A stretch of 64,000 bases of DNA from Escherichia coli (GCF_024298765.1 NZ_CP101210.1), one strand, 5' to 3'. Counted from the stretch's first letter, positions 16,901 to 55,302 are shown. Notes: a model not told the origin generated them from the letters alone. Made by a program: numbers and translations.

Positions 16901-17147
16901 TGCCAACGGTACTATTACGCGTGTCACCCAAAATCCAATTGTGGTTGAGCAGATAGAAAAGCACGACAAGTCGATTGCCCTCAAAGGCGACTTGCCGCAA
17001 GCGGTGAAGCAAGCCGTTGTGCAGGCTCTGCTGAAAGAAGGTGATATAGCCCGAACGCTACTCAAAGACCCACAAGTTATGGCAAGTTATGTTGAGTTGA
17101 TTTTTGACATGATGAAGCAAGGTGCAGAACAGGCGGCGGTGAAATAA
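13911..17147 (+). CDS. hsdR: Type I restriction enzyme endonuclease/helicase subunit HsdR
   Basis: 1078 aa; Walker A GSGKTST and DEAH box (VIIDEAHTSQ); GGGAGG RBS; TAATG overlap with hsdS and with downstream gene. Confidence 0.9.
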   Translation: MAAHHEVHFEQYITEQLVNNGWKEGHSCHYDQQRALYPQDVMDWVKATQPDAWHKLNKLHGVNAEQVLLERLEKALSSHKAGSKTGGTINVLRKGFTIAGCGTIAMGQRKPEDARNEERIARYEHNILRVVRQLKYCPTREWEIDLVFFINGLPVATAELKTDFTQSLESAIAQYKEDRLPVDPKTKRKEPLLTFKRGAVVHFAMSDTEIAMATKLAGENTYFLPFNKGHDGSTSDLPVHINLPGEDGEYPVSYFWQEIAQKDNWLRIFYSFVYVETKEVADSNGKVERKETQIFPRYHQLAAVNKMIDDARQNGAGMQYLCEHSAGSGKTSTIAWTAHDLIRLRSTDGKAVFKSVIIVTDRTVLDSQLQDAVQQLDHQYGVIKAIDREKSSESKSKQLTEALLTGTPIIVVTIQTFPYALEAILTNQSLAQSNFAVIIDEAHTSQTGSTAKGLRAALTLNLSPQELEQMSIEDILTKVQEARAMPKNVSHFAFTATPKHSTKMLFGRPKDPNQPVSDDNLPESFHLYTQRQAIDEGFILDVLENYTHYDTAYKIGENNLDEKRVDSKQARRALARWMSLHPTTVSQKVEFIIKHFKANIAHLLEGEAKAMVVTSGRPQAVKYKLAFDKYIKKHGIEGIQALVAFSGKVPGKDLGDEDSQDPLEIDFDKEYTEYNLNPDTHGADLRHEFEKTEYRVMLVANKFQTGFNQPKLVAMYLDKKISDVEAVQTLSRLNRTYPGKDTTFVIDFVNDPQTILNAFKKYDKGAQLNEVQDVNVIYDIKDILDEQNIYNHQDLELFKQARGKSILGQSPDKKPHAHKKLLAATQRPTDVFNVKLKELVDAANHWDQQYNKAHLAGDEKAANYAESQRSDFTKQREALMRFKSDLARFVKHYSYMAQLIEFGDPELENFAAFAHLLSRRLKGVTPENIDLSALVLEKFKIKYDKEPLPEAFNQVLEPIRPNYNDPADREQAFLADIIRRLNELFGDVGDEPGRRNFANGTITRVTQNPIVVEQIEKHDKSIALKGDLPQAVKQAVVQALLKEGDIARTLLKDPQVMASYVELIFDMMKQGAEQAAVK

Positions 17148-21853: not shown

Positions 21854-22180
21854 ACATAAGCACAGCGGGATCAAATACGTCACGCCAGCCGAGCGTCATC
21901 AAGGTAATGACATGAAAATACTGGCAGCCTGAAAAGCGGTATACCAGCTAGCTCGCGAGCAACATCCTGAACGTTGGGGCAAGTATCTACGTAACTGGAA
22001 CTACATATCAGAAGTCTACCTGAATCCAGAAAAAGAGGCTGCATAACGTAATTTTATTACAAAAAGCGACAACTACCTTGAAAAACACCGCCAAATCATG
22101 ATCGATTCGAATGCCAAACTGCGATCGATTCAGATGCCATTTTGCATGCTGCCAGAGCAATATTCCCCCTGATGGTTGTA

Positions 22181-22855
22181 TCAGAGATGGTATGCCGGTA
22201 CTTTGCGGGTTGTTCCTGTCAGGTTATCGTGCACCTCCACATTCGTTGTCACTACCGGCATTCCGTTCTGTCTTAGTCTCAGGACATCAGCCGCAATACG
22301 CTGACTGCCAGACCAGAACAGGCCGTCCAGCGCAGTCACCAGCAATCCCGCCTCCAGCGCATACTTCAGCCGTTCACGGGGCACTTTCACTTCCCGGGCA
22401 ATCTGCTGATAGGGTGATGATGTATTTTCATTCCCAACCATCCGGCGAATACGGTGAGACAGATGATACCGGAATGTATCCGGCACACCGGAAAGACTGG
22501 CCTTCAGGCTGTACACGCAGCCAAATCGCTTATCGTTGAACACCACATTTTTCTGGCTGATATCCCATTCTTCTCGAAGCGCAGCAATCAGCTGTGGCGT
22601 GCGGGTTAAAAGCAGACGAAAAGGCAGTTCAAAACTGGTGACGTAATCCACATTCAGCAGGGCAATACGCAGCCGTTCTTCTGGTCCGGCCTCTGTCTGC
22701 CGACACTCCTCCAGAACATCCTGCCACTGCTGGCAAAGGCGTGGAGATTCATTCAGTTCTGTAAAACAATATTTATCCGCAAGATAGTCAATTTGTGCAG
22801 GCATACTGAAGAGAATTCCGTATAAAGATTCAGCAGACAAAACTTTATCAGTCAA
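22181..22855 (-). CDS. hypothetical protein; its 5-prime region is duplicated upstream of tssF
   Basis: 224-aa ORF; first ~66 codons plus ~25 bp upstream recur (diverged) at 37305-37527. Confidence 0.5.
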   Translation of the reverse strand: MTDKVLSAESLYGILFSMPAQIDYLADKYCFTELNESPRLCQQWQDVLEECRQTEAGPEERLRIALLNVDYVTSFELPFRLLLTRTPQLIAALREEWDISQKNVVFNDKRFGCVYSLKASLSGVPDTFRYHLSHRIRRMVGNENTSSPYQQIAREVKVPRERLKYALEAGLLVTALDGLFWSGSQRIAADVLRLRQNGMPVVTTNVEVHDNLTGTTRKVPAYHL

Positions 22856-22880
22856 TAAGAATCAACGGAAGCACAGAAGG
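22658..22880 (-). repeat. copy 1 of ~220-bp diverged segment (5-prime end of gene at 22855)
   Basis: Pairs with 37305-37527 on the opposite strand; homology ends at GATTACGTCA. Confidence 0.7.
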
Positions 22881-22986
22881 TTCATACGTCCATCACCAAC
22901 TGATTGTTGTCATAACGGGTAACATAAAGGACTGAACGACTGTTTGAACCGCCCCGGGTTTCCTGGAGAGTGTTTTATCTGTGAAC

Positions 22987-26237
<3,251 letters not shown>

Positions 26238-26922
26238 GTTCCAGCTCTTTCAGACGCTGACGTTCAGCGCTGGTGAGCCCACCATCACCGCCCCCGGTAT
26301 CCCGCTCATGCTGGCGAACCCAGACACGCAGAGTCTCCGGCGTACAGCCAATCTTTGGAGCAATGGAACAAATTGCCGCCCACTGTGAGTCATATTCATC
26401 CTGACTTTCCAGAACCATACGAATCGCCCGCTGACGGACTTCGGGGGAAAAACGAGTATTTTTAGTCATCCTGTTTACCTCTTTCTCAGGGAGTTTAGTC
26501 TCCAGGATTTCCGGGGCGGTTCAAATACTGGGCGAAGGGAGATGTTATTGCGAAGCGCGCGCCAATTGGTCAGTGGGAACCTTATTCGGAAGAGTCACTA
26601 CTTGGCATCATCGTCACCAGCGTCTGTCGTATTAAAGTCGCGATGCTAAAACCTGAACCTCCCAGAGATCCCCATATCCCGCTGATGGGGGATTTTAACT
26701 AAAACTTAGCGCTATCGCTGCGTATCGTAACTATCCCGTATTACGTAGCGTAAATTATGACGCCATACGGGGAACAAATACACAGAGGAAGAAAAAGATT
26801 AGATTGGTTTTAAGGGATGTTTTTATCATAAATGGCACTGCTAAAATTATGAGATTATCGAAGATAAAATTCTTGATCATACATAAAAGGCCTCCTGAAT
26901 TAAATCAAGAGGCGTATAGTTT

Positions 26923-31098: not shown

Positions 31099-32214
31099 GT
31101 GAACCGCCCCGTGTTTCCTGTTTATCATTTTCTGGTCAGTGCCGCGATTCTGGTATTCGTGGTGATTTTCTGGCGGACACACCATCGCGACCACCGTAAC
31201 TGGCTGGCTCTACGGCTATTCGTATTATGCTCTGTAAACCGTTGGCCATTGCGGATGGTTAAAGGAACAGTTGTGGGGACAACTGACACATTACGTGAAA
31301 TGCAGCGTTATGAACAACTGAGTCAGCACGGGGCTGACAACTGGAAAATCCAGCCGGGAGCACCGTTATATGATACGATTGTTATTGTCACTGGTGAGAA
31401 TGTGCGCAGGGATTATATGTCAGTGTATGGCTATCTCGTACCAACCACACCGTGGCTGAATACGGCACCCGGTTTATTTATTGACGATTATACCTTGACA
31501 GCCTCCAGTACAGTGTCTTCCCTGAGCCGGACACTGATTTATGACTATGAGCAGAACCCTGATTCCGGCAACAATGTGGTGGCGCTGGCAGCAAAAGCAG
31601 GATACAGCACATGGTGGATATCCAATCAAGGAAAACTGGGGGAGCATGACACACGCATCTCTGTTATTGCTTCTGATGCGGAGCATGCCACTTTCCTCAA
31701 GAAAGGCAGCTTCGCTTCCCGTAAAACAGATGACAAACTGTTGTTACAGGAAACAGAACGTGCGCTGGCGGATACATCCTCTCCGAAGATAATTTTCCTG
31801 CACATGATGGGTTCTCATCCAAATCCGTGTGACAGCCTTAACTCCTGGCCGAATAATTACCTGGAGCAGTATCCCCGAAAAATTGCCTGTTACCTCGCCA
31901 GCATCAGTAAACTGGATAACTTTCTTGGCCAGCTTGATGGTATCCTTCGCCGGTACTCACATCATTTCGCCATGCTTTACTTTTCTGGCCTTGGGCTGTC
32001 GGTCAGCGACAGTGCCAATCCTGTTCATCATTATGGTCATGTGCAGGGAGGCTACAGTGTGCCACTGATTATTACCGCCAGTGACATAACGTCTCATCAG
32101 CCCGTCAGTAGAAAAATCAGTGCCCGTCATTTCGCAGGTATTTTTCAGTGGATGAACGGTATTTGTACTGAAAATATACCGCCATTCAATCCGCTGACAG
32201 ACGAAGATAATTAA
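31099..32214 (+). CDS. sulfatase-like (alkaline phosphatase superfamily) membrane-anchored hydrolase/transferase, possibly N-terminally truncated
   Basis: GTG start with AGGAG RBS; one N-terminal TM then motifs IVIVTGENVRRDYMSVYGY and YSTWWISNQG...HD resembling phosphoethanolamine-transferase catalytic domains; IS5 abuts the stop codon. Confidence 0.5.
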   Translation: MNRPVFPVYHFLVSAAILVFVVIFWRTHHRDHRNWLALRLFVLCSVNRWPLRMVKGTVVGTTDTLREMQRYEQLSQHGADNWKIQPGAPLYDTIVIVTGENVRRDYMSVYGYLVPTTPWLNTAPGLFIDDYTLTASSTVSSLSRTLIYDYEQNPDSGNNVVALAAKAGYSTWWISNQGKLGEHDTRISVIASDAEHATFLKKGSFASRKTDDKLLLQETERALADTSSPKIIFLHMMGSHPNPCDSLNSWPNNYLEQYPRKIACYLASISKLDNFLGQLDGILRRYSHHFAMLYFSGLGLSVSDSANPVHHYGHVQGGYSVPLIITASDITSHQPVSRKISARHFAGIFQWMNGICTENIPPFNPLTDEDN

Positions 32215-33409
<1,195 letters not shown>

Positions 33410-34823
33410 CTAGTGGTTAAAGTGGCAGCACTGATGACTTAAGCGATATTGTCTTTGTATACCAGATGAATATCTGCTCCTCGCTCATAGCAGACTTTTG
33501 CATAGGTTCTTTTCCTAAAATAGCATGACATTTGTTTCAAAATTAGCCTGTAAGTCAAGAAAATACTTGGAGAATAATAATCTAGGCATTGGTAGCAACG
33601 ATAAATATCTACATAACCGATATTATCGAGTTACTAAATTGATGTGTTCCGGTAGATGAACAAAATGGTAGATCCTTCTAGAAACAAATAGAGTGTGGAT
33701 GAGGTAACCTGACTCAGCCAATTTATTGAGTCCGTTGAGCATCTGATCGGTTAATCTCTGAGAAAGAGTTTTCAGACAGATTCATTTTCTAGAATTATTT
33801 TTACTCATCAAACAAGGATGATTTTAATTTAGGTTTATTACTATAATTATATTTATTCTTTATATATTCTTTATTCACTCCCTTTTTCATACAATCTCTA
33901 TTGTTATTTACTTCCTGTCTTCACTCACTCTCAATCTTTACACATTCCATTAGTATTACTCTTGTTATCGTATTCACTCCATCCCTCAATCATAACTACT
34001 GTAACTCATATGATGTTCAGGTAAGTTATTCTCTACTACGCTATTGTTGATATTCATCTATTCTCATCTTCAGTAAAACAGTAATTGATTCTAATTTATC
34101 CATTATGAACCGTATTTGCTTAACAATGATTGTTTATCTGAAGTGTTTTAACTATTCTGGTGAACATCAATTTCTCTGTCATTACTGATTAACTGAATGC
34201 TTACTCTTTAATAAGGTATCCATTATTCTGTAACGATTAGCCGAGCAGGGTAAATAACAGAATTAATAGAGTGAATTTCTGATTGTGTTTGTTCGTTCCT
34301 GATTATCTTGTATTTTAAACAAAATGAAAATTATCCATCCATGGTATGTTTCATTCTGGTACCGTGTACCCGTTAACGTTCATATCTTGAACATGAGTTG
34401 TTTTTAACAGATAAAATGAGTGCGTGTAAGTTTATTGGGTTACAGGTATCGTGTTGGCCTTGTACACGGTTTTTTAGAACCATTGAGAGCAAGTTTGTAA
34501 TTTATGATGGTGATTAGTCGTAATATGTTTCTTGAACTTCTGATCGTGGGTTTTTATCGCATATTTTGCAGTATTTCGTGATGTTTATTGATTCTGTATT
34601 TTATTCACTCCTCGTTTATCTCATCTCTTTAGCTAATACCATCAGATAATCCATTTATTTCTGCACAACGCTACGTGTCGTTAATAACCGACGTATCCAT
34701 TCTGTTACAGCATGCCTGATAAATACCGTCTGTAAGTTATTACCGTTTTAGATCTGATTATGAGCGAAAGCATTAATTCGTTTACAGCACTTAAAACGTC
34801 ATTAACTTTCAGGAGTCATCAGC

Positions 34824-35390
34824 ATGCCTAAATCTTACACACCAAACTGGTTTTTTACCGCTTTACTTGACAATCACATCAATCAGTTGGTCGCACGCTA
34901 TTCCCGCCTGCGGGCCTTACGCATGGATTTCTTCTACAGGAAAGATACGCCTGATTTCTTACAACCTGATCATCGCTGGCTTGAATTGCAGTTGCGTATG
35001 CTGCTGGAGCAGGTGGAACAATTTGAAAATATCGTTGGTTTCTTCTGGGTGATTGAATGGACGGCTGATCATGGTTTTCATGCGCATGCGGTTTTCTGGC
35101 TCGATCGTCAGAGGGTTAAAAAAATATATCCCTTTGCGGAGCGGATTACGGAATGCTGGCAGTCTATTACGCATAACAGCGGTTCGGCACACCGCTGTAC
35201 ATATCAGCCGCATTATACATACAACATCAACATTCCCGTGCGTCATAACGATCCCGGGAGCATCGATAATATTCGCGGTGTCCTGCATTATCTGGCGAAA
35301 GAAGAGCAAAAAGACGGACTGTGCGCATACGGTTGCAGTGAAGTTCCTGAACGACCTGCTGCAGGGCGTCCTCGTAAGCCTCACTTCTGA
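34824..35390 (+). CDS. YagK/YfjJ family protein (inovirus Gp2-like), paralogue
   Basis: 188 aa; GFHAHAVFWLD core; AGGAG RBS; preceded by 1.4 kb AT-rich leader. Confidence 0.5.
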   Translation: MPKSYTPNWFFTALLDNHINQLVARYSRLRALRMDFFYRKDTPDFLQPDHRWLELQLRMLLEQVEQFENIVGFFWVIEWTADHGFHAHAVFWLDRQRVKKIYPFAERITECWQSITHNSGSAHRCTYQPHYTYNINIPVRHNDPGSIDNIRGVLHYLAKEEQKDGLCAYGCSEVPERPAAGRPRKPHF

Positions 35391-35647
35391 AGCTTAAATC
35401 CTGAGCTTCCTGTCCTGGAAACATTCCGTCGGTAAAACCTTACCGCCTTGCTTAATGATGTGAACTGAAGTCAACGGAGATCATTCACTCTGAACCACAT
35501 CCGGTGTTCTGTCCCTTGTCGGTGACCTGATCTTCCCGTTCTGCCCCGGTTCTTCACTTATTCCATCAACCCCATCCGCAAACCATAACACGTCAGCTTA
35601 TTCACGGGCAGGACGCATTGTGGGCTGCGCATAACGGAGCATATCTT

Positions 35648-36208
35648 ATGAATGCTATCCCTTATTTCGACTATAGCCTGGCCCCCTTCTGGCCATCTTA
35701 TCAGAACAAAGTCATCGGCGTCCTTGAGCGTGCGCTGCGTGAGCAGTCCGGCTCACGGATACGGCGGATCCTGCTTCGTCTGCCGTGTGAATATGACAAT
35801 ACCTTCAACAGCAGAACGACCTGGTTTGGTATGGATTTTATCGAAACCGTCAGTGCGCTGATGAATGCAACACCCGGACGTGACCTTTGCTGGCTCCTGA
35901 CCCGTCATCCTGAAAAACCGGAATACCATGTGGTGCTGTGCGTCAGACAGGAGTATTTCGACGGCCCCGAACTGGATCGGTTGATTCTGGATGCCTGGAG
36001 TAACGTGCTGGGTTTCGCGTCACCAGGTGAAGCAAAGCCGTACCAGAAGCAGATCACCCGGGATGTGGTACTGGATCGCCGGTCACCGGACTGCGAAGCC
36101 CTGTTTAAGGACCTTATCTGGGCGTTCAGTGATTTCGCCCGCGATCGCCGTGGAGTGCGCGATCCGGAAGCCCGTTGCCTCGCCGGTAATCCCGGTTGGC
36201 AGTGCTGA
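35648..36208 (+). CDS. YagK/YfjJ family protein (inovirus Gp2-like), second paralogue
   Basis: Start placed at ATG 35648 (ACGGAG RBS); YHVVLCVRQEYFD core. Confidence 0.45.
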   Translation: MNAIPYFDYSLAPFWPSYQNKVIGVLERALREQSGSRIRRILLRLPCEYDNTFNSRTTWFGMDFIETVSALMNATPGRDLCWLLTRHPEKPEYHVVLCVRQEYFDGPELDRLILDAWSNVLGFASPGEAKPYQKQITRDVVLDRRSPDCEALFKDLIWAFSDFARDRRGVRDPEARCLAGNPGWQC

Positions 36209-36276
36209 AAGCAGCATTCCATCCCATACCTCGTATTACCCCATTCTTCATCAATCTCACAGAGGATATTCTGACC

Positions 36277-36507
36277 ATGTTGACCACAATAAGCCACGAC
36301 AGCGTGTTGCTGCGTGCCGACGATCCCCTGATCGACATGAACTACATCACCAGTTTCACCGGCATGACCGATAAATGGTTTTACAGGCTGATCAGTGAAG
36401 GTCATTTCCCTAAACCCATCAAACTGGGGCGCAGCAGCCGCTGGTACAAAAGTGAAGTAGAGCAGTGGATGCAGCAGCGAATTGAGGAATCACGAGGAGC
36501 AGCATGA
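36277..36507 (+). CDS. alpA: AlpA-family phage/island transcriptional regulator
   Basis: Small HTH protein ...FTGMTDKWFYRLISEGHFPKPIKLGRSSRWYKSEVEQW; start chosen at internal ATG of the 103-aa ORF. Confidence 0.5.
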   Translation: MLTTISHDSVLLRADDPLIDMNYITSFTGMTDKWFYRLISEGHFPKPIKLGRSSRWYKSEVEQWMQQRIEESRGAA

Positions 36508-36732
36508 AACGAGTTGTGATGCCGGTACGCTGGCAATGTGCAAAATGCCGGCGCTGGTATTGCGGAAATCAGCTCTGTCCCTGGTGCTGGCGACATTACC
36601 GTTCATTTTCCTGCTGACCCTCTCCGGTCAGCCAGCAGGTTGTAGCTCTTTCCTGACTGATTCGTTATTCCTTTCGTCCCGTCAGTCACTGGTGTTTGTA
36701 TCGTACTGTGCTGGTGTTGATGTGCGTTTTCC

Positions 36733-37275
36733 GTGTGTCTGCACCGGCTTAACAAAATTCACAGGGGTAAAATAGTGCAAATAACCGAAGCCTTACTTTC
36801 AGCGCCGGGGGAAATCCGGCGTTTTGTTCAGCAGGGGGTGGACCACTGGCCGCGTCTGCTGGCATTTCACTTCACGCTCCATTCGGCAGAAGGAAACATC
36901 AACGGGCAACAGATTCATGCATTCTGTACTTCCTTTTATGAACGTATTACTGAGCGTAATCACACGACCAGTCCATCATCGCCGGTGGTATTACGCTGGT
37001 TGCGGGAACAACATGGAGGAGCAACAATGCGATGCCTGTTGCTGCTCAGCCAGACGAGTATTTGTCACCCGCGAGCCAGTGTCACAGTTGATGAACAATG
37101 TTCGCAAGTGGTGGATTTACTGCAGCAGACCTGGCGGGGGATGGATACGGGCGGACAATGTCGGGTGGAAAGGTGTTTTCGGGTTACCCGGCCTGATACA
37201 TCAGAGCAATACGTTGCGTTAAAAACGGCTGTTCAGTCTCTGATGCCACTGGTTATTGCAACAATCATCCGGTGA
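36733..37275 (+). CDS. hypothetical island protein, possibly truncated
   Basis: 180-aa ORF downstream of alpA; no family recognised. Confidence 0.3.
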   Translation: MCLHRLNKIHRGKIVQITEALLSAPGEIRRFVQQGVDHWPRLLAFHFTLHSAEGNINGQQIHAFCTSFYERITERNHTTSPSSPVVLRWLREQHGGATMRCLLLLSQTSICHPRASVTVDEQCSQVVDLLQQTWRGMDTGGQCRVERCFRVTRPDTSEQYVALKTAVQSLMPLVIATIIR

Positions 37276-37304
37276 TGACCGGGAGAAATATCGACTCTTC
37301 CGTT

Positions 37305-37527
37305 AATTTTTACAGACTGATAAAGTTTTGTCTGCTGAATCTTTATACGGAATTCTTTTCAGTATGCGTACACGAATTGATTATCTGGCGGATAAATACT
37401 GTTTTACAGAACTGAATGAATCGCCCCGTCTTCGCCGGCAATGGCAGGATGTCCTGGATGAGTGCCGGCAGACAGAGGCAGGGCCGGAAGAACGGTTGCG
37501 TATTGCACTGTTGAATGTGGATTACGT
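37305..37527 (+). repeat. copy 2 of ~220-bp diverged segment (5-prime end of gene at 22855), fused to tssF
   Basis: Encodes ..AESLYGILFSMRTRIDYLADKYCFTELNESPRL.. up to ..LLNVDYV, then switches into the tssF frame. Confidence 0.7.
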
Positions 37528-39206
37528 CAGCAATGCTGAATCTGGATAAGCCTGGTGCCTGCGATCCCAGTGTGGAACGTCTGTTTGAAGGCTTTGCCTT
37601 CCTGATGGGACGTTTGCGTGAAAAGCTGGATGATGACCTGCCGGAGCTCACCGAAGGTCTGGTGAGTCTGCTGTGGCCGCACTATATGCGGACTATCCCG
37701 TCGCTGGCCATCGTTGAGTTCTCGCCTGACTGGCGTAGTCTGCGTCAGGCCGAAATACTGGCTGAAGGCTTTTCCGTTCTGTCCCGTCCTGTCGGGCCGC
37801 ATAAAACCGCCTGCCAGTACCGGGCGACCCGCGATGTGTTGCTACAACCGCTGCACCTTGCAGATGCCCGTCTCCATACTGAATCCGATGGCCGCTCTGC
37901 TATCCGTCTGCGCTTCGAATGCCCTGAAAAAGTGGACTGGAGTAAAGCCGGGATCGACAAAGTCGCCATTTTTCTTAACGCAGAGGCGCCGGTAAGTGCT
38001 GCGCTACATCTGGCAATGACCCGGCGTGTACATGCCATGTATGCGCGTCATGCCGGGACATATACCGGACGTCGTCAGTTTGACGGCTGGTGCAGACCCA
38101 TGGGCTTTGACGACAATGACTGCCTGTGGAAGAAAGCTGATACAGCCTTCAGTGGTTACCAGTTGCTGCTGGAGTATTTCAGCTTCCGTCCGAAGTTTAT
38201 GTTTGTTGAACTGCGCGGCCTCGACACCATTGGGCTCACTGCGGCCAGTACCTGGTTTGAAATCGACATTGTGCTCAGTGAAGCCTGGTCATCCGGTTTG
38301 CCTTTTGAGACAGAAAACTTCCGCCTGCACTGTGCGCCGGTTATCAATCTCTTTACCCTGGAAGCCGACCCGCTGATCCTTAACCCGCTGGATAACGAGT
38401 ACCTGCTCAGGCCGCTGCGTCTTCAGGATGGTCACACCGAAATTTACAGCGTCGATAACATTCACGGCTCGGTGAAGAACGGCAGACACCCTTATGTCCC
38501 GTTCACCAGCTTCCGGCACCGGGGCGGTATGATGCGCCACGATGCTCCTGAACGTTATTACCACACCCGTGTGAAACGGGGACCCTCCGGCCTGTATGAC
38601 ACATGGTTAGTTCTCGGGGGGCGTTCGTTCGAGCTGGAGCAGTTGTCCGATAAACCGGAGTCCCTCTCGATGCGAATCACCGCGACCAACGGGCAGCTTC
38701 CGCGCAGGGCGCTGGAAAGTACGCTCCTGGACAGGGTGGTCAAAACCGGCAAAGTCCCCGTCAGAGTCCTGAACCTGACCGCACCGACGATGCCACTGTA
38801 TCCCCCGGCAAATGACCGGTTTCACTGGCGGGTGATGAGTCACCTCGGATCAAACTTTCTCAGCATGATGGACAATCCGGAGGTGCTGCGGGGGACGCTG
38901 GCGCTCTATGACTGGACCGACGATGAAATGAACCGCCGCCGGCTTGAAGCCATCGTTGCTGTGAAGCACACCCTGATCCGCCGTTTTGAAAAGGGCTTTA
39001 TGCTCCGTGGCGTGGACATTGAGGTCACGCTGAATATGGATAATTTTGCCGGCGAGGGCGATGTGAATCTCTTCGGGGAGATGCTGCACCGTTTCTTTGC
39101 GCTCTATGCTGATGTTCACCTTTTCAACCAGCTCACACTGGTACTGCAACCCACAGGGAAACGACTGAGATGGAAAGAGAATCACAGCCAGCACGTACCG
39201 GGCTGA
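37515..39206 (+). pseudogene. tssF: type VI secretion baseplate subunit TssF, N-terminally truncated
   Basis: DPSVERLFEGFAFLMGRLREKLDDDLPELTEGLVSLLWPHY matches the TssF N-region; first ~40-50 residues replaced by unrelated sequence. Confidence 0.7.
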
Positions 39207-40015
39207 CGCAGGCCCTGGCCCTTAACAACGATATCTGGCGGGCCAGTTTTTATCGTTTCTGCCAGCTGCTGGAGCTGGAAAATCCGGACGGGCCAAAACT
39301 GGGCACGACCAGCCATCCGGGCGATGACCCGGTGCGATTCAGGCCCTGGCCCGGGATGGGATTCCCGGTCAGCACCCTGAAAGCGGTGGAGATCGACGAA
39401 GACCGTCCGACATTACCCCCAACGATCCGCACGACATTTCTCGGAATGTATGGGGTGGACTCACCTCTGCCGACGTCCTGGCTGGATGATATTGCGCAGC
39501 GCCGTGAAGGACATGAGGCGCTCACCTCATTTCTGGATATTTTCAGCCACCGCATCACCACCCAGTACTACCGGATCTGGCGAAAATATGCGTATCCGGC
39601 CACTTTCGAGGAGGGGGGGCGCGATGCCACATCGCAGTGTCTGCTGGGACTGGTCGGACTCGGTATACCCGGCACCGCTGAACAGGTGGCAACGCCGGTT
39701 TCCCGTTTCCTGGCCTTACTGGGTGCCATGCGATTACCCACCCGCAATGCTGAAGGCATCCGGGCTCTGGTGAGTCTGCTGGCACCGGATACCCGCGCAC
39801 TTATCACCGAACCCGATCCGGTTAAGGTCCATATCGATAACCGCAGTGGGCTGGGTGCCGGAAACCGCATCCGTCTTTCGCAGCGGGCCACGCTGGGTAA
39901 AACGGCAGGGGAAGCATGCAGCCGGCTCCTGATGACACTGGAAACAGCGGATCCGGACGAGGCGGAAGGCTGGTTGCCCACAGATAACCGGAGCAGGATT
40001 TACCGCCTTTCTTAG
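39170..40015 (+). pseudogene. tssG: type VI secretion baseplate subunit TssG, C-terminally truncated
   Basis: 281 aa with TssG-like FYRFCQLLE...VRF...FPVS...FLGMYGVDSPLP...FLDIFSHRITTQYYRIWRKY; overlaps tssF end; IS66 fragment starts about 50 bp downstream. Confidence 0.65.
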
Positions 40016-40066
40016 TGTTCAGGATCTTCAGGGTAGTCTCATCTGCATGCACCACCGGACGGTTTA

Positions 40067-40849
40067 TCAACTCGCGATGGAGTAACGCCGCCAGGGGAGA
40101 TAATGCGGCACCCGCCGCGCCAACCATGTCAGCCATCGAACTGACGGGCAGCCCGACACTGAACGGGCAAAGACCTGTTGCTGGCGATACAGAGGCAGGT
40201 GGTCACCGTATTTATTGATGATCACCTGTGTGATGACTGATGGCTCAACGGCACTTTTCGGGAGGATATGTGCCGGCATTTCACCGCTGAACACCTTCTG
40301 GCAACAGGAACAACTGTATTGCGGACGGACATAACGGTTCACCACGAAGTGAACGGGAATATACTCCAGCTTTTCACTCACCGCATCACGGATATAGTGC
40401 AGCGGCTCGTCACATTCAGGGCAATGGTCAGTGTCCGGCTGGATAATTTTTTCCACCCGTGGAAGATGAGCCGGTAAGGGTTTGCGTATCGGGCGTGAAC
40501 GGGACGCTTTTTCGTCTTCTTCAGGGGATTGCGGGAGCAGTTTATCCAGATGTGCGGTAAGCGCGGCGATATCGACATCAACATCCTCTTCGAACAGGGA
40601 GCGTTGCATACCAGCCAGCGTTTCACATTTTTTACCGAAGCGCTGTTGACGAACCAGTTTCAGCATTTCTTCCAGAAGCTGGATGCGCCGGCTTTTCTCC
40701 AGTAATTCCCGCTCTTTTTCGGCATTCTCCGACATGACTTTTTGTACCATGGTAAGTGCCATAGCACGCAGTTTTTCGATGTCATTCGTGGTGTTGAGAG
40801 CGGAGATATCCATACAGGGGAGTATACCACTCCAGATACGGATATTCAT
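40067..40849 (-). pseudogene. tnpC: IS66 TnpC, N-terminal part only
   Basis: Coiled-coil N-terminus, Zn finger CPECDEPL...CSCC, DHLPLYRQ motif; C-terminal half missing. Confidence 0.7.
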
Positions 40850-40855
40850 TATTTT

Positions 40856-41248
40856 TCACTGAGTTAGCAGTGTATTTTGCGTGTTTTCAGGGCGCAGTTC
40901 AGGTTCATTCTGCCAGCCCCATTTCGTCAGGTCATGTCCCTTAACCTGCTGCCAGTCAACACCGGCAATCAGCCAGTTAAACTCGTCGGGAGTTAGGTGC
41001 CAGGCAGCATCATTTGCACGTGGCCAGCGGAAGCTGCCTTTGTGCAGACGGCGGGTACACAACCACACCCCGTGTTTATCCCACCGGAGAACTTTGATAC
41101 GCGAACGGACTTTGTTAACAAAGACGAAGGCGGCTCCCTCATGCCATGTCGACCGGAGTTCATCCTGTATATACTGCGTCAGTGTGTCGATGCCCCGGCG
41201 CATGTCAACAGGTTTAATCGCGATGAAGACATTATCAGGACTGAGCAT
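40856..41248 (-). CDS. tnpB: IS66 TnpB (Orf2)
   Basis: Start at internal ATG (MLSPDNVFIAIKPVDMRRGIDTL...); typical ~130-aa TnpB. Confidence 0.7.
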   Translation of the reverse strand: MLSPDNVFIAIKPVDMRRGIDTLTQYIQDELRSTWHEGAAFVFVNKVRSRIKVLRWDKHGVWLCTRRLHKGSFRWPRANDAAWHLTPDEFNWLIAGVDWQQVKGHDLTKWGWQNEPELRPENTQNTLLTQ

Positions 41249-41564
41249 ATTTGAGCGCCCTGAAGACATCGGTAAGTTGTGACGGCTGACAGCACATCCG
41301 TACTCCGCCGGGAAGGAAGAGCGTGACTGGCTCATTCGTGACGGGCTGTGGTACATCAGCATGCAGTGGTGGCGCAATATGAACGGGAAGAACGGTCGGT
41401 TCATTTGCCCGGCGTTCAGCTTTTGCGACATCCTGCGGCCATTCGCGAAGTGATGTGAAGGGAATATCGTTGAGTTCACAGTATTGCTGACGTGTAAGAC
41501 CACTGGCGCGCCAGGCAGCAACGTGCTGCCTTTTCTGTTCAATGGTCCATCGGGGTTTTGACAT
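41235..41564 (-). CDS. tnpA: IS66 TnpA (Orf1)
   Basis: 109 aa; overlaps the tnpB start. Confidence 0.65.
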   Translation of the reverse strand: MSKPRWTIEQKRQHVAAWRASGLTRQQYCELNDIPFTSLREWPQDVAKAERRANEPTVLPVHIAPPLHADVPQPVTNEPVTLFLPGGVRMCCQPSQLTDVFRALKYAQS

Positions 41565-41670
41565 TGATTATCTCCGGTAAGTTGGTGAATGAATGTCGGT
41601 AATGCTAACTGACTGAAAATCTCTGTGAAGATGACTTCCCCGTAACGACACCTTCTTTATCGCCTGCCGA

Positions 41671-42394
41671 ATGACGCTGTTCAGCGATTCGATGGCTATC
41701 GTCGTGTCCGGGCTATTCTCAGACGGCAGTCTTAACGAAGGACTGCAGTTCGTGAATGCAAATCGCGTTTATCGAATAATGAGCGAGAATAACCTGTTGT
41801 TATTACATGACAAACCTTCACGACCGCAGAGGGAACATAAAGGCCCGAATATCGGTGAAGGAAAGCGACCCGCGCTGGTGTGCCGATGGCTTTGAGTTCG
41901 GTTGTGATGATGACGAAAAACTGCGTGTCACGTTCGCACTGGACTGTTGCGATCTTGAATCCATAGACTGGGCCGCAAGCACGGGAGGTTATGGCAAAGC
42001 AACGGTGCAGGATGTCATGTCAGGAGCGATAGAAAAACGCTTTGGCGATAGACCGGGATGGCCCATCCAGTGGCTGACCGATAACGGTTCGGCTTATACA
42101 ACTCATGAAACACGGCAGTTCGCCAGAGAGTTGAATCTGGAGCTCTGCACGACGGCAGTCAGTAGCCCTCAGAGTAATGGAATGAGAGAACGGTTCGTGA
42201 AAACGATGAAGAGCGATTACATCAGTATCATACCTAAACCGGACGGGTTAATGGCAGCAAAGAACCTTGCAGAGGCGTTCGAGCATTATAACGAATGGCA
42301 TCCGCATAGTGCACTGGGTTATCGCTCGCCACGGGAATATCTACGGCAGCGGGCCAGTAATGGGTTAAGTGATAACAGGTGTCTGGAAATATAG
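41671..42394 (+). pseudogene. DDE transposase/integrase (rve domain) fragment, frameshifted
   Basis: [10 protein letters not shown] and [16 protein letters not shown] integrase-core motifs; N-terminal part in a different frame. Confidence 0.55.
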
Positions 42395-48823: not shown

Positions 48824-49744
48824 ATGAGCACAAGAGTATGGGTACTTGGTGATGCGGTTGTTGATTTATTACCCGAAAGCCAGGGGAGACTACTACAGTG
48901 TCCTGGCGGGGCGCCTGCTAATGTTGCAGTCGGTATCGCAAGGCTGGGGGGGAAAAGTGCCTTTATTGGCAAAGTTGGCGATGATCCTTTCGGTCGCTTT
49001 ATGTATCAGACACTGAGTACAGAAAATGTTGATACACGTTATATGTCTCTTGATCCTCAACATCGCACCTCAATTGTGGCTGTAGGACTTGATGAGCAAG
49101 GAGAAAGAAACTTTACCTTTATGGTACGCCCAAGTGCCGATCTTTTTTTACAACCTGATGGCCTTCCTGCATTTGGGCCGGGTGAATGGCTCCATCTTTG
49201 TTCCATTGCGCTCAGTGCAGAACCTTCCCGAAGTACCGCATTTCTGGCTATGGAGAAAATACGTCAGGCTGGCGGAAACATCAGTTTTGATCCCAATATC
49301 CGCAGCGATCTCTGGCAGAGTGAAGCGCTATTAAGGAAATACCTTGATCGCGCACTTTCGCTGGCGAATATCGCTAAATTGTCCGAAGAAGAGTTGCTAT
49401 TCATCAGTGGCGAAAGCCAGGTTCAGCAAGGCGCATATTCATTAGTACAACGTTATTCGTTGACTTTATTGCTTATCACACAAGGAAAAAATGGCGTACT
49501 TGTGTATTTTCAGGGGCAGTTTATCCACTATCCCGCCAAACCTGTTTCTGTCGTCGATACGACCGGGGCAGGAGATGCTTTTGTCGCTGGATTACTTGCC
49601 GGTCTGGCTGATTCTGGAATACCAACAAATACCAGACAGCTTGAACGAATCATTGTACAAGCTCAGATTTGTGGTGCTCTGGCGACCACGGCTAAAGGCG
49701 CGATGACCGCCTTACCCCGACAACACGATCTCCCTTCACAATAG
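48824..49744 (+). CDS. scrK: fructokinase
   Basis: 306 aa; ribokinase/pfkB family motifs (GGAPANVA; DTTGAGDAF); first gene of scr cluster. Confidence 0.85.
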   Translation: MSTRVWVLGDAVVDLLPESQGRLLQCPGGAPANVAVGIARLGGKSAFIGKVGDDPFGRFMYQTLSTENVDTRYMSLDPQHRTSIVAVGLDEQGERNFTFMVRPSADLFLQPDGLPAFGPGEWLHLCSIALSAEPSRSTAFLAMEKIRQAGGNISFDPNIRSDLWQSEALLRKYLDRALSLANIAKLSEEELLFISGESQVQQGAYSLVQRYSLTLLLITQGKNGVLVYFQGQFIHYPAKPVSVVDTTGAGDAFVAGLLAGLADSGIPTNTRQLERIIVQAQICGALATTAKGAMTALPRQHDLPSQ

Positions 49745-49795
49745 TGATCCTGCTGTTGTATCTGTAACCCGATTTGTCGTGCCTGTCACATTTAC

Positions 49796-49866
49796 TAAAT
49801 CGGTTTAGCGAAAATAATTGCTTTGGCTAAAAAGTCAGCTTTATTATCAACACCTAAACCGGTTTA
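49796..49866 (+). promoter_or_regulatory. scrY promoter region with two palindromic LacI-type operators
   Basis: TAAATCGGTTTA at 49796-49807 and perfect palindrome TAAACCGGTTTA at 49855-49866. Confidence 0.55.
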
Positions 49867-49887
49867 GCATTTTAGCAATTTTTATAA

Positions 49888-51429
<1,542 letters not shown>

Positions 51430-51489
51430 TACCAGACAACCTCACAGATGTGAAGTTTTTACTGAAATAACAATGAATTAGAGGGTTAT

Positions 51490-52860
51490 ATGGATTTCGA
51501 TAAAATCGCCCAATCGTTGCTTCCTTTATTAGGTGGTAAGGAGAACATCGCCAGTGCAGCACATTGCGCCACTCGCCTACGGCTGGTACTGGTTGACGAC
51601 ACACTTGCCGATCAACATGCCATTGGCCAGATTGATGGAGTGAAAGGTTGTTTTCGTAATTCAGGGCAAATGCAAATTATCTTTGGCACCGGCGTGGTTA
51701 ATAAAGTCTATGCTGCCTTTATTCAGGTTGCAGGTATTAGCGAATCCAGTAAAGCAGATATCGCTCGACTCGCCGCTCAAAAACTCAATCCTTTTCAGCG
51801 AATAGCACGGCTACTTTCTAATATTTTTGTCCCCATCATTCCAGCCATTGTTGCTTCTGGTTTATTAATGGGGCTTCTGGGAATGGTGAAAACATATGGC
51901 TGGGTGAATACCGATAATGCGATTTATATCCTGCTGGATATGTGCAGTTCAGCCGCATTTATTATTCTCCCCATCCTTATTGGCTTTACTGCTGCTCGTG
52001 AATTTGGTGGAAATCCTTATCTTGGCGCGACATTAGGAGGGATTCTGACTCACCCGGCACTCACAAATGCCTGGGGCGTTGCTGCGGGATTTCAGACAAT
52101 GAACTTCTTCGGTTTTGAAATCGCCATGATTGGCTATCAGGGAACGGTTTTCCCCGTGCTTCTGGCAGTATGGTTTATGAGCATAGTGGAAAAACAGTTA
52201 CGCAGGTTTATCCCTGATGCTCTGGATCTCATTCTGACGCCATTTCTGACTGTCGTCATTTCTGGCTTTATCGCTCTTTTGATTATTGGTCCGGCAGGAC
52301 GAGCGTTAGGTGACGGTATCTCTTTCGTTCTCAGCACGCTGATTGCACACGCAGGCTGGTTAGCAGGGTTGTTATTCGGCGGGCTATATTCAGCGATTGT
52401 TATTACGGGTATTCATCATAGCTTCCACGCAATTGAAGCAGGACTTTTAGGTAACCCTGCAATCGGTGTTAATTTCCTGCTGCCTATTTGGGCAATGGCA
52501 AACGTTGCGCAAGGCGGTGCATGTCTGGCGGTATGGTTTAAAACCAAAGATACAAAAATTAAAGCAATCACCCTACCCTCGGCCTTTTCCGCAATGTTAG
52601 GGATTACTGAAGCCGCTATTTTTGGTATCAACCTTCGTTTTGTTAAACCTTTTATTGCGGCCTTAATTGGTGGCGCTGCCGGCGGTGCCTGGGTTGTCTC
52701 TGTTCACGTTTATATGACTGCCGTTGGTCTGACCGCAATACCCGGCATGGCAATCGTTCAGCCAACATCGTTGGTTAATTATATTATTGGAATGGTGATT
52801 GCTTTCGCTGTCGCTTTTAGCCTCTCTTTATTATTCAAATACAAAACGGACGAGGAGTAA
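51490..52860 (+). CDS. scrA: PTS sucrose-specific EIIBC component
   Basis: 456 aa; EIIB Cys motif (AAHCATRLRL) then membrane EIIC domain. Confidence 0.85.
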   Translation: MDFDKIAQSLLPLLGGKENIASAAHCATRLRLVLVDDTLADQHAIGQIDGVKGCFRNSGQMQIIFGTGVVNKVYAAFIQVAGISESSKADIARLAAQKLNPFQRIARLLSNIFVPIIPAIVASGLLMGLLGMVKTYGWVNTDNAIYILLDMCSSAAFIILPILIGFTAAREFGGNPYLGATLGGILTHPALTNAWGVAAGFQTMNFFGFEIAMIGYQGTVFPVLLAVWFMSIVEKQLRRFIPDALDLILTPFLTVVISGFIALLIIGPAGRALGDGISFVLSTLIAHAGWLAGLLFGGLYSAIVITGIHHSFHAIEAGLLGNPAIGVNFLLPIWAMANVAQGGACLAVWFKTKDTKIKAITLPSAFSAMLGITEAAIFGINLRFVKPFIAALIGGAAGGAWVVSVHVYMTAVGLTAIPGMAIVQPTSLVNYIIGMVIAFAVAFSLSLLFKYKTDEE

Positions 52861-54269
52861 TGTCGATGCCTTCACAAATGCCCGCGATTTTACAGGCAGT
52901 GATGAAAGGTCAGTCCAAAGCACTGGCAGATGCCCACTATCCTTGTTGGCATCTCGCTCCCGTCACCGGACTAATGAACGATCCAAATGGCTTTTGCTGG
53001 TCTGGAGGCCGCTATCATCTGTTTTATCAGTGGAATCCACTGGCTTGTGATCATAAGTACAAATGTTGGGGGCACTGGAGTTCGACGGATTTATTGCACT
53101 GGCAGCATGAACCATTAGCGCTAATGCCCGATAAAGAGTACGACCGTAATGGTTGTTACTCAGGAAGCGCGGTTAATAATCAGGGCGTTCTCACACTTTG
53201 CTATACCGGTAATGTTAAGTTTGATGATGGCAGCAGAACGGCATGGCAATGTCTGGCCACCGAAAATAACCAGGGCGGGTTTGATAAACTAGGCCCTGTC
53301 ATATCGTTACCTGATGGTTACACCGGACATGTTCGTGATCCAAAAGTCTGGAAGCACAACAGCCAATGGTACATGGTGCTTGGCGCGCAAGATAAAGAGA
53401 AACGGGGGAAAGTGCTGCTGTATTCCTCTGTCGATCTGAATACCTGGTCTTTTCATGGAGAAATTGCTGGTAACGGTCTGAATGAAATAGATAACGCAGG
53501 ATACATGTGGGAATGTCCTGATCTTTTCGCCCTTGATGGTGAATACATTCTCCTCTGTTGCCCCCAGGGAATGGTGCGCGAACATGAGCGCTATCTGAAT
53601 ACTTATCCCTGCGCCTGGCTACATGGACAGTTTGATTACGAGACAGGCAAATTTACGCATGGCGCTTTCTCAGAGCTGGATGCGGGATTTGAATTCTATG
53701 CACCACAGACGATGGAAGCCCCGGACGGGCGACGATTGCTGGTCGGCTGGATGGGGGTTCCTGATGGCGAAGAGATGTTGCAGCCAACCAGAAAGCATCA
53801 TTGGCAGCATCAAATGACCTGTTTTCGCGAACTCTCATTCCAGAAGGGAAAATTGTTTCAGATGCCAATCAGGGAACTCGCGCAACTGCGTGAAGCTGAA
53901 CACTTCTGGCAAGGAAAAGCGGATCATGCGCCGCATGTCGAAATTGAACGCCTGGAAATGGACATCATTCCGTCGGGTGAGCTGTATCTGAATTTTGGCA
54001 ATGCGCTGGCACTGCATCTTAATGACGATGGTATTCAACTACAGAGGAGAAGCCTTGCAGGGCAAGAGAAACTAACTCGTTACTGGCGAGGAAGCGTAAC
54101 GTCACTGAAGATTCTCTGTGACAGTTCCAGCGTAGAGATATTCATCAATAATGGTGAAGGTGTAATGAGTAATCGTTATTTTCCCCATCATCCAGCTTCG
54201 CTGATATTACAGGGTGAGTCTGACGTCACGTTACGCTACTGGTCGCTACGCGCCTGCATGGTAGAATGA
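52860..54269 (+). CDS. scrB: sucrose-6-phosphate hydrolase (GH32)
   Basis: 469 aa; GH32 motifs NDPNG, RDP, EC; start overlaps scrA stop (TAATG). Confidence 0.85.
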
Positions 54270-54294
54270 GGGTTTTGAATTACGGATCCTCGTC

Positions 54295-55302
54295 GTGAGA
54301 AAAACCAAACGCGTTACTATTAAAGACATTGCTGAACTGGCGGGAGTGTCGAAAGCAACCGCCAGTCTGGTTCTCAATGGTCGTGGCAAAGAGTTACGTG
54401 TTGCGCAGGAAACGCGTGAGCGTGTGCTGAGTATTGCCCAACAGCAGCATTATCAGCCCAGCATTCATGCCCGCTCATTACGGGACAACCGCAGTCATAC
54501 CATTGGTCTCGTCGTTCCTGAAATCACTAACTACGGATTTGCAGTATTTTCCCATGAACTGGAAACATTGTGTCGGGAAGCGGGCGTCCAACTCCTCATA
54601 TCCTGTACTGATGAAAATCCTTCACAGGAAACAATGGTGGTGAACAATATGATTGCCCGCCAGGTTGATGGGTTAATCGTCGCATCCAGTATGCTGCATG
54701 ATAATGACTATCAAAAACTTAGCGAGCAATTACCTGTTGTGTTGTTCGATCGCCACATGAACGGCAGCACATTGCCATTGGTCATTACTGACTCTGTTTC
54801 TCCCACCGCCGCTCTGGTGGCAGATATTGCACGGAGTCACCCGGATGAATTCTATTTTCTGGGGGGACAACCCCGTTTGTCACCGACTCGCGATCGACTG
54901 GAAGGATTTACACAAGGCTTGCAGCAAGCCGGAGTAACGCTACAACCTGAATGGATTATTCACGGTAATTATCATCCGAGCTCAGGCTATGAAATGTTTG
55001 CCGCGCTATGCGCTCGTTTAGGACGTCCTCCTAAAGCCTTATTCACTGCCGCTTGTGGATTACTGGAAGGCGTTCTGCGCTATATGAGCCAATATAATTT
55101 ACTCGACAGTACAATCCACCTGGCGAGTTTTGATGATCATTATTTGTATGATTCACTTTCGGTAAGAATCGACACAATACAACAGGATAATCGCCAACTT
55201 GCTTTTCACTGCTTTGAGCTTATTTCGCAACTGATTGAAGGTGAAACGCCATCCCCATTACAGCGTTATCTTCCTGCCAGTTTACAAAAACGCTATAGAT
55301 AA
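54295..55302 (+). CDS. scrR: LacI-family sucrose operon repressor
   Basis: 335 aa; GTG start; N-terminal [25 protein letters not shown]. Confidence 0.8.

What the first reader, a model, noticed from the sequence alone, without database searches (positions are those of the whole stretch)
37305..40015. Type VI secretion remnant (tssF', tssG') with tssF 5-prime end replaced by a diverged copy of another gene's start
TssF begins inside its conserved N-terminal region; the first ~220 bp upstream are a ~90 percent-identical copy of the start (plus ~25 bp of leader) of the unrelated 224-aa gene at 22181-22855, with homology ending at GATTACGTCA. TssG is cut short about 50 bp before an IS66 fragment. 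Only two baseplate genes remain, so the system cannot be functional. The shared module is diverged, not a recent duplication, which suggests an older recombination event.
Basis: seen in the sequence. Interest (0 to 1): 0.6.

Follow-up and report, generated by a model that had tools for sequence, protein, structure and literature searches.

The report
Deletion remnant of a T6SS island
Two internal deletions in an E. coli genomic island left only a headless tssF and a tailless tssG of a type VI secretion system; this is ordinary gene decay, already annotated as pseudogenes in public genomes.

Summary
The sequence observation is real. Window 37306-37529 matches the start of the 22-kb gene at 88.8% over 224 nt, ending at GATTACGTCA. 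tssF lacks codons 1-30 and tssG stops at codon 270 of 362.

The upstream fragment is not a copy of the 22-kb gene. It is this island's own ECs1377-family gene. In E. coli strains with the intact T6SS (STEC316, SC418; 98% identical tssF-tssG), that gene lies about 1.1 kb upstream of tssB, after the same backbone genes. The fragment is 95% identical to those orthologs.

Relative to STEC316, one 26,337-bp deletion joined ECs1377 nt 166 to tssF nt 91 at a 2-bp microhomology (CA). It removed tssB through tssA. A second deletion joined tssG codon 270 to the interior of an ISEc49-like transposase gene at a 5-bp microhomology (TGCCC). There is no 50-bp gap.

The identical 3.4 kb, with both junctions, is in 58 of 5,426 complete E. 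coli genomes, and 24 carry the intact version. The one carrier record read (Ecol_517) annotates all three pieces as pseudogenes. No frameshifts have accumulated, so the deletions look recent.

Verdict: ordinary island attrition, low interest.

The parts
34824..37275 (+). Conserved island backbone upstream of the remnant: YagK/YfjJ-domain gene (34824-35390), hypothetical gene (35648-36208), AlpA-like HTH gene (36277-36507) and a hypothetical / Gp2-family gene (36775-37275).
   Evidence: RefSeq annotation of the identical segment in Ecol_517 (window = L001 + 16699). It is collinear at 94.2% with the backbone that precedes the intact T6SS in STEC316 and at 99.2% (36733-37327) with SFE8.
37364..37529 (+). 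5' fragment of the island's own ECs1377-family gene, about codons 1-55 of 207. Homology to the paralogue, including the leader, starts at 37306. The reading frame runs on to a TAA at 37547-37549.
   Evidence: NF052300 profile positions 1-44 of 190, 60 bits against a cutoff of 190. Annotated as a pseudogene 'missing C-terminus'. 95.1% identical to the STEC316 orthologue and 88.8% to window 22639-22862.
37528..37529 (.). Left deletion junction: the dinucleotide CA is shared by both parents (ECs1377 ...TACGTCA|CCAG, tssF ...CGGGCA|GCAATG).
   Evidence: Three-way comparison of the window, the STEC316 ECs1377 orthologue and the STEC316 tssF start. The interval missing relative to STEC316 is 26,337 bp.
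37530..39206 (+). tssF' : codons 32-589 of TssF plus the stop. Codons 1-30 are deleted and codon 31 is altered. The mechanical ORF starts at an out-of-frame ATG (37515) inside ECs1377-derived sequence, which gives MWITS followed by TssF residues 32-589.
   Evidence: TIGR03359, 514.7 bits, profile positions 28-597 of 600. 99.5% amino-acid identity to SC418 TssF residues 31-589. Aligns to 6GIY chain A residues 31-587. Annotated as a pseudogene 'missing N-terminus'.
39170..39979 (+). tssG' : codons 1-270 of 362. The ORF reads on through 36 nt of IS-derived sequence to a TAG at 40013-40015.
   Evidence: TIGR03347 profile positions 2-252 of 300. tblastn against SC418 TssG matches residues 1-270 at 97%. 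The alignment with STEC316 tssG breaks at 39979. Annotated as a pseudogene 'missing C-terminus'.
39975..39979 (.). Right deletion junction: the 5-bp microhomology TGCCC is shared by tssG and the ISEc49-like tnpC.
   Evidence: Three-way comparison of the window, STEC316 tssG and intact ISEc49 copies (L009, L008).
39980..41651 (-). Truncated ISEc49-like IS66-family element. tnpC' keeps codons ~1-280 of 521 and is frameshifted (to ~40813/40849). tnpB is at 40856-41248 and tnpA at 41235-41564. The terminus on the tnpA side is intact at 41651. The tnpC-distal part (~730 bp of tnpC plus the far terminus) is missing.
   Evidence: 98.3% identical to an intact ISEc49 in FDAARGOS_1255 over 1681 bp. The tnpC fragments cover NF033517 profile positions 3-178 of 387, below the cutoff. 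The end of homology at 41651 was compared in three different contexts.
22181..22862 (-). Intact paralogous ECs1377-family gene. The RefSeq start gives 207 aa (22181-22804); the longest ORF is 224 aa (to 22855). It sits in an orphan scrap of another island backbone (22147-22945) between IS3-family fragments. The stretch 22639-22862 is the part homologous to 37306-37529.
   Evidence: NF052300, 322.6 bits, above the cutoff of 190. Same gene and context in the leuX island of strain Z226-7. 87.7-88% identical to the backbone orthologues.

Best explanation
The segment is what remains of a Sci-1-like (T6SS-1 type) secretion cluster carried on a CP4/P4-type tRNA-Phe genomic island.

In the intact island the order is: backbone (YagK/YfjJ gene, hypothetical, AlpA-like HTH, Gp2-like gene), then the ECs1377-family gene, a small hypothetical gene and a DUF4222 gene. 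The T6SS follows: tssB, tssC, tssK, tssL, an ompA/tagL-like gene, hcp, tssH, vgrG, effector/immunity genes, PAAR, tssM, tssA, tssF, tssG, tssJ, vgrG and, further on, tssE.

Two illegitimate deletions at short microhomologies removed nearly all of it.

1. A ~26.3-kb deletion joined nt 166 of the ECs1377-family gene to nt 91 of tssF at a shared CA.
2. A second deletion joined tssG codon 270 to codon ~280 of the transposase gene of an ISEc49-like element at a shared TGCCC.

Nothing was copied from the 22-kb gene. That gene is an intact paralogue from a different island backbone, brought within 15 kb by IS-mediated mosaicism.

The remnant does nothing as a secretion system. At most, read-through from the ECs1377' transcript could yield truncated TssF' and TssG' polypeptides.

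Shown by the data: the junction sequences, the synteny, the identities, the population distribution and the absence of other T6SS genes in the window. Inferred: the deletion mechanism (microhomology-mediated illegitimate recombination), the order of the two deletions, where the ISEc49-like element originally sat, and the lack of expression.
For: - Intact islands have the ECs1377-family gene ~1.1 kb upstream of tssB, in the same orientation. tssF-tssG there are 97.6-98.2% identical to the window (STEC316; SC418; identities).
- Window 35405-37532 is collinear with the STEC316 backbone at 94.2%. Window 37528-39979 then continues in STEC316 tssF-tssG at 98.2%. The two STEC316 points are 26,337 bp apart.
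- The fragment is 95.1%, 94.7% and 94.4% identical to its positional orthologues, against 88.8% to the 22-kb copy.
- Both junctions carry microhomology: CA on the left and TGCCC on the right.
- The right junction lies inside tnpC (profile position ~178 of 387), not at an IS terminus.
- The identical 3,401 bp spanning both junctions occurs in 58 of 5,426 complete E. coli genomes from varied hosts, so it is not an assembly artefact. A further 24 genomes have full-length 95-99% matches; all three whose annotation was read have intact clusters.
- RefSeq annotates the ECs1377 fragment, tssF, tssG and tnpC as incomplete pseudogenes in the one carrier record read, Ecol_517.
- There are 13 remnant-specific substitutions (10 synonymous, 3 non-synonymous) and no frameshifts or stops. 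Most divergence therefore predates inactivation, and the deletion is recent.
- Published work describes Sci-1 in the pheU island of EAEC (PMC6730261). It also describes module loss by deletion as the normal mode of evolution of pheV islands (PMC11537424).
Against: - No genome was found with only one of the two deletions, so their order and independence are inferred.
- No intact island was found with an ISEc49-like element downstream of tssG, so the parent of the right junction is hypothetical.
- The closest backbone orthologues are 94-99% identical, not 100%, so the true parent island is not in hand. Its deleted interval may differ somewhat from 26,337 bp.
- One of the three intact islands examined (SC406) lacks the ECs1377 gene upstream of the T6SS.
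- Both ORFs are still open, so expression of truncated proteins is not excluded.
Confidence: 0.9

Rival explanations
1. One reading: a diverged copy of the start of the 22-kb gene (22181-22855) was duplicated or recombined onto the front of tssF in an old event, replacing its 5' end.
For: The two stretches in the window are clearly homologous (88.8% over 224 nt, E 1e-80), and the homology stops exactly at the junction.
Against: - The fragment is closer to the orthologues beside intact T6SS clusters (94.4-95.1%) than to the 22-kb copy.
- More than 2 kb of upstream backbone is collinear with those islands.
- The same junction exists in genomes where this query finds only one matching place, for example Ecol_517, 1223 and WP4-S18-ESBL-08.
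- The 22-kb copy is itself an orphan scrap of a leuX-type island.
Confidence: 0.03
2. A two-step origin through homologous recombination. tssF was first truncated in another context. Recombination between ECs1377-family paralogues or backbone modules of two islands then brought this backbone next to it.
For: - Island backbones are repeated and recombine; GI-pheV modules show recombination (PMC11537424).
- Backbone identity to STEC316 (94-96%) is lower than T6SS identity (98.2%), which hints at mosaic ancestry.
- The 36733-37327 stretch is 99.2% identical to SFE8, an island that carries different cargo.
Against: - The junction lies inside the ECs1377 gene and shares only 2 bp with tssF. Whatever happened upstream, the join itself is illegitimate, not homologous.
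- A single deletion in an island of the observed architecture is enough to explain it.
Confidence: 0.05
3. The chimeric ORF (MWITS + TssF 32-589) and TssG 1-270 are expressed and retained for a function, for example as modulators or decoys of another T6SS baseplate.
For: Both ORFs are uninterrupted. The remnant-specific changes are mostly synonymous (10 of 13). The segment is identical in 58 genomes.
Against: - The whole surrounding 8.8 kb differs from Ecol_517 by a single SNP, so the identity reflects recency, not selection.
- No + strand promoter-like site was found in 36900-37700, and no Shine-Dalgarno-like motif is visible before ATG 37515 or Met33 (sequence).
- The tssF frame is out of frame with ECs1377'.
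- TssG lacks its last 92 residues.
- RefSeq marks all of them as pseudogenes.
Confidence: 0.02

Closest known systems
Intact T6SS island of E. coli STEC316 (NZ_CP041431, next to cadC, the known pheU position) and SC418 (NZ_LR778147)
   Same: The backbone genes are the same. The ECs1377-family gene is upstream of tssB. tssF-tssG are 97.6-98.2% identical at the nucleotide level, and TssF is 99.5% identical at the protein level.
   Different: The window lacks the ~26.3 kb from the middle of the ECs1377 gene to tssF codon 30. It also lacks everything after tssG codon 270 (tssJ, the second vgrG, effectors, tssE).
EAEC Sci-1 / E. coli T6SS-1 cluster of the pheU pathogenicity island (TssKFGE wedge structures 6GIY, 6GJ1, 6N38)
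   Same: The intact relatives have the same gene order (tssB, C, K, L, tagL-like, hcp, clpV, vgrG ... tssM, tssA, tssF, tssG, tssJ ... tssE; the Sci-1 order is from my own recollection). TssF' aligns end to end with EAEC TssF residues 31-587, and TssG' with residues 7-271. The island type is the same (PMC6730261).
   Different: It is a distinct variant. The common E. coli T6SS-1-type loci are only ~71% identical at the DNA level. Here only two truncated genes remain.
Modular decay of tRNA-Phe islands (GI-pheV) and attrition of secretion-system loci in E. coli (for example ETT2)
   Same: Mosaic islands lose whole modules by deletion and keep scraps (PMC11537424). ETT2 shows the same kind of mutational attrition (PMC3032704).
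   Different: The deletions described for GI-pheV are attributed to flanking IS copies. Here both joins lie inside genes at 2-5 bp microhomologies, and the IS is itself truncated.

Membership tests
TssF (TIGR03359, T6SS baseplate subunit) | Full-length match to the equivalog profile above the curated cutoff | tested here: inconclusive
   The score of 514.7 bits exceeds the cutoff of 260.3, so it is TssF by descent. The match covers only profile positions 28-597 of 600, and residues 1-30 of the 589-aa orthologue are missing. It is a truncated member, that is, a pseudogene.
TssG (TIGR03347, T6SS baseplate subunit) | Full-length match to the equivalog profile above the curated cutoff | tested here: inconclusive
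   The score of 204.4 bits exceeds the cutoff of 143.3, but only profile positions 2-252 of 300 are matched. Residues 271-362 of the orthologue are missing.
Functional type VI secretion system | Presence of the 13 core components TssA-TssM plus Hcp, VgrG and ClpV (established knowledge) | tested here: not met
   tblastn of 21 intact-island proteins (19 T6SS-cluster proteins) against the 64-kb window finds only TssF 31-589 and TssG 1-270. The rest of the source genome could not be examined.
ECs1377 family (NF052300) | Whole-protein score at or above the curated cutoff of 190 bits | tested here: not met
   The fragment at 37328-37549 scores 60 bits over profile positions 1-44 of 190. The 22-kb gene scores 322.6 bits and is a full member.
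IS66-family insertion sequence (ISEc49-like) | Complete tnpA-tnpB-tnpC with both termini | tested here: not met
   tnpA, tnpB and the terminus on the tnpA side are present. tnpC covers only profile positions 3-178 of 387 and is frameshifted. The far end of the element is absent.
   It is 88.8% identical to the 22-kb gene, against 94.4-95.1% to the positional orthologues in other strains' T6SS islands.

The most novel reading that the evidence does not exclude
The still-open chimeric tssF' (five foreign residues plus TssF 32-589) and tssG' (1-270 plus a 12-residue IS-derived tail) are transcribed from the ECs1377-family promoter. They persist because the truncated baseplate proteins interfere with, or tune, another T6SS in carrier strains.
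Probability: 0.02. Interest if true: 0.35.

Novelty: already known. Interest (0 to 1): 0.08.

Why it matters
It matters little beyond correct annotation. This is a clean worked example of how a ~30-kb secretion-system module is erased from an E. coli genomic island by two microhomology-mediated deletions. It also shows that repeated island backbones can make a deletion scar look like a gene-fusion or duplication event. The practical points are these. tssF and tssG hits in such strains should not be counted as a T6SS. The ECs1377-family repeat marks a paralogous backbone, not a recombination product.

Tried and rejected
1. Was the left junction made by the ISEc49-like element? In strain cS100a an ISEc49-like copy abuts an ECs1377-family gene. 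There, however, it sits at about nt 525 of the gene and in the other relative orientation. No ECs1377 3' fragment exists next to the IS in the window. Rejected.

2. Does the 100% conservation of the remnant in 58 genomes indicate selection? The whole 33410-42245 stretch differs from Ecol_517 by one SNP. No signal.

3. A Pfam scan of the 224-aa ECs1377-family protein gave only an insignificant wHTH hit (E 0.59). Its function stays unknown. A literature search for 'ECs1377' found one CGH paper that mentions it once; I did not open it.

4. The promoter/terminator scan of 36900-37700 found nothing on the + strand.

5. The tRNA scan found none in the window, so the integration site cannot be read from the window itself.

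6. I looked for the window's exact overall arrangement in complete genomes. The joint at ~32.2-33.4 kb (an IS5/ISKpn26 copy) is not reproduced in any of them, so the source strain was not identified.

7. I could not test whether carrier genomes hold another, divergent T6SS.

Full report
**Observation**

Window 37306-37529 aligns without gaps to the reverse complement of 22639-22862, with 25 mismatches in 224 nt (88.8%, E 1e-80). The similarity stops right after GATTACGTCA, which is 37520-37529. Weaker similarity (70%) runs ~105 nt further upstream, until an IS3-family fragment cuts the 22-kb copy at 22945.

The ORF at 37515-39206 is TssF (TIGR03359, 514.7 bits), but it covers only profile positions 28-597 of 600. 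The ORF at 39170-40015 is TssG (TIGR03347), covering profile positions 2-252 of 300. Against solved EAEC Sci-1 structures, TssF' aligns to residues 31-587 of 6GIY chain A and TssG' to residues 7-271 of chain C.

One detail is off. tssG does not end ~50 bp before the IS66 fragment. tssG homology ends at 39979 and IS homology begins at 39975. The ORF then reads 36 nt into IS-derived sequence before a stop at 40013-40015.

**What the 5' fragment is**

The 22-kb gene is a full member of NCBIfam NF052300, the 'ECs1377 family' (322.6 bits). The 37.3-kb piece matches the first 44 profile positions.

The decisive evidence comes from E. coli genomes that carry the same T6SS intact. Twenty-four complete genomes carry full-length tssF-tssG matches at 95-99% with no IS66 feature listed under them. 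The three whose annotation I read (STEC316, SC406, SC418) have complete T6SS clusters.

In STEC316 the island sits next to cadC. From my own knowledge that is the pheU tRNA site; the tRNA itself is not in the feature table. The island reads in this order:

- yee/CbtA-type module
- inovirus-Gp2/YagK-like gene, hypothetical gene, AlpA-like HTH gene, Gp2-like gene
- ECs1377-family 'DNA-binding protein'
- small hypothetical gene and DUF4222 gene
- tssB, tssC, tssK, tssL, ompA-family gene, hcp, tssH, vgrG, effectors, PAAR, tssM, tssA
- tssF, tssG, tssJ, vgrG, and further on tssE

SC418 has the same ECs1377, hypothetical, DUF4222, tssB ... tssF, tssG, tssJ order, with an intact 207-aa ECs1377-family gene. 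SC406 keeps the hypothetical and DUF4222 genes before tssB but lacks the ECs1377 gene.

Window 35405-37532 is collinear with the STEC316 backbone at 94.2%. Window 37528-39979 continues in STEC316 tssF-tssG at 98.2%.

The ECs1377 fragment is 95.1% identical to the STEC316 orthologue, 94.7% to SFE8 and 94.4% to SC418. It is only 88.8% identical to the copy at 22 kb in the same window. It is therefore the island's own gene in its original place, not a copy of the 22-kb gene.

The 22-kb gene is an orphan scrap (22147-22945) of another backbone. It lies between IS3-family fragments in a leuX-island-like segment, as seen in strain Z226-7. An IS5/ISKpn26 copy at ~32.2-33.4 kb joins that segment to the remnant segment. 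Several carriers of the remnant, such as Ecol_517, show only one matching place for the 36700-40100 query. They have no second ECs1377-type copy.

**Junction anatomy**

*Left junction*

- ECs1377 parent: ...GATTACGTCA|CCAGTTTTGAG
- tssF parent: ...CCTGATCGGGCA|GCAATGCTGAAT
- window: ...GATTACGTCA|GCAATGCTGAAT

Two bases (CA, 37528-37529) are shared. In STEC316 coordinates the missing interval is 26,337 bp. It runs from ECs1377 nt ~167, through tssB to tssA, to tssF nt 90. TssF residues 1-30 (MDDLTLRYYEAEMRYLREAGKEFARAHPDR) are lost, and Ala31 becomes Ser in the mechanical ORF.

The ECs1377 frame and the tssF frame differ. The ECs1377' frame stops at TAA 37547-37549. The listed tssF ORF begins at an ATG (37515) that happens to lie in ECs1377-derived sequence.

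*Right junction*

- tssG parent: ...GGCTGGTTGCCC|GGTGCGG
- ISEc49 tnpC parent (antisense strand): ...GACGTATGCCC|ACAGATAACC
- window: ...GGCTGGTTGCCC|ACAGATAACC

Five bases (TGCCC, 39975-39979) are shared.

The IS is 98.3% identical to ISEc49. Its tnpA and tnpB genes and its tnpA-side terminus (41651) are intact. tnpC is cut at about codon 280 of 521, which is profile position ~178 of 387, and is frameshifted. Neither boundary of the remnant is an IS terminus. Both joins are interior-to-interior at short microhomologies, which is the signature of illegitimate recombination. That mechanism is an inference from established knowledge of spontaneous deletions.

**Population and age**

The 3,401 bp spanning both junctions is 100% identical in 58 of 5,426 complete E. 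coli genomes from humans, poultry, dogs, water and food. The structure is therefore real and inherited. In the one carrier record I read (Ecol_517), RefSeq annotates the ECs1377 fragment as 'missing C-terminus', tssF as 'missing N-terminus', tssG as 'missing C-terminus' and tnpC as 'incomplete, frameshifted'. In Ecol_517 the island lies beside yghD. From my own knowledge that is the pheV side of the chromosome.

Compared with three intact orthologues, the remnant has 13 private substitutions, 10 synonymous and 3 non-synonymous, with no stops or frameshifts. That pattern fits divergence that accumulated while the genes were functional, followed by a recent deletion. The identity across carriers is not evidence of selection. 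The whole 33410-42245 stretch differs from Ecol_517 by one SNP.

**Function**

Only TssF 31-589 and TssG 1-270 are found in the window. None of the other T6SS-cluster proteins tested (TssB, C, K, L, TagL-like, Hcp, TssH, two VgrGs, PAAR, TssM, TssA, TssJ, TssE) gives a hit. No T6SS can be assembled from this locus.

No + strand promoter-like site was found in 36900-37700, and no obvious ribosome-binding site precedes ATG 37515. Expression of truncated proteins cannot be excluded, but nothing supports it.

**Comparison with known systems and verdict**

The parent system is a variant of the Sci-1 / T6SS-1 type. It has the same gene order (the Sci-1 order is from my own recollection), and its TssF and TssG align nearly end to end with the EAEC Sci-1 proteins. 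Other E. coli tssF-tssG loci detected by megablast are ~71% identical at the DNA level. This type of system is known from the pheU island of EAEC (PMC6730261).

Loss of whole modules by deletion is the documented way in which tRNA-Phe islands evolve (PMC11537424). Attrition of secretion loci such as ETT2 is common in E. coli (PMC3032704).

The finding is a correctly observed but ordinary deletion scar, already annotated as pseudogenes. The 'replacement by a diverged copy' reading is not supported. Interest is low.

Noticed in passing
window 8810-33410: A ~23-kb leuX-island-like segment sits between the yee-type module (1-8810) and the T6SS-remnant segment. It carries IS1, a RelB-family antitoxin gene, a type I R-M system at 10646-17147, RhuM, MobI(A/C), IS3 fragments and nanXY. 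An IS5/ISKpn26 copy at ~32208-33410 forms the joint. No complete RefSeq E. coli genome reproduces this joint.
   Followed up: partly
window 22945-26524: A group II intron reverse transcriptase/maturase (ltrA, 23550-25073, minus strand) lies inside a disrupted IS3-family element, next to the 22-kb ECs1377 paralogue. The arrangement is the same in strain Z226-7.
   Followed up: no
L008 6586-7132 (strain cS100a); L004 7804-8429 (STEC316): ECs1377-family genes are damaged repeatedly in different islands. In cS100a one is cut by an ISEc49-like element at about nt 525 and by ISEc60. In STEC316 one is frameshifted. In the window one is truncated. The family has no known function, and Pfam gives nothing significant.
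   Followed up: partly
L002 33534-37001 (STEC316): The intact T6SS island of STEC316 carries a type II Zorya anti-phage system (zorA2, zorB2, zorE) a few genes downstream of the T6SS.
   Followed up: no
window 48824-55302: A sucrose PTS regulon sits as island cargo: fructokinase, a maltoporin-family (LamB-like) porin, sucrose-specific EIIBC, sucrose-6-phosphate hydrolase and a LacI-type repressor. From my own knowledge this is the scrKYABR layout. It is followed by IS4- and IS1380-family transposases at 59.8-62.4 kb.
   Followed up: no
window 41652-42394: Directly beyond the intact ISEc49-like terminus (41651) there are ~40 bp of unassigned sequence. A truncated IS2/IS3-family transposase fragment follows. 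In Ecol_517 a tyrosine-recombinase scrap lies beyond that fragment, and the window stops matching Ecol_517 just before it. This is a pile-up of decayed mobile elements.
   Followed up: partly
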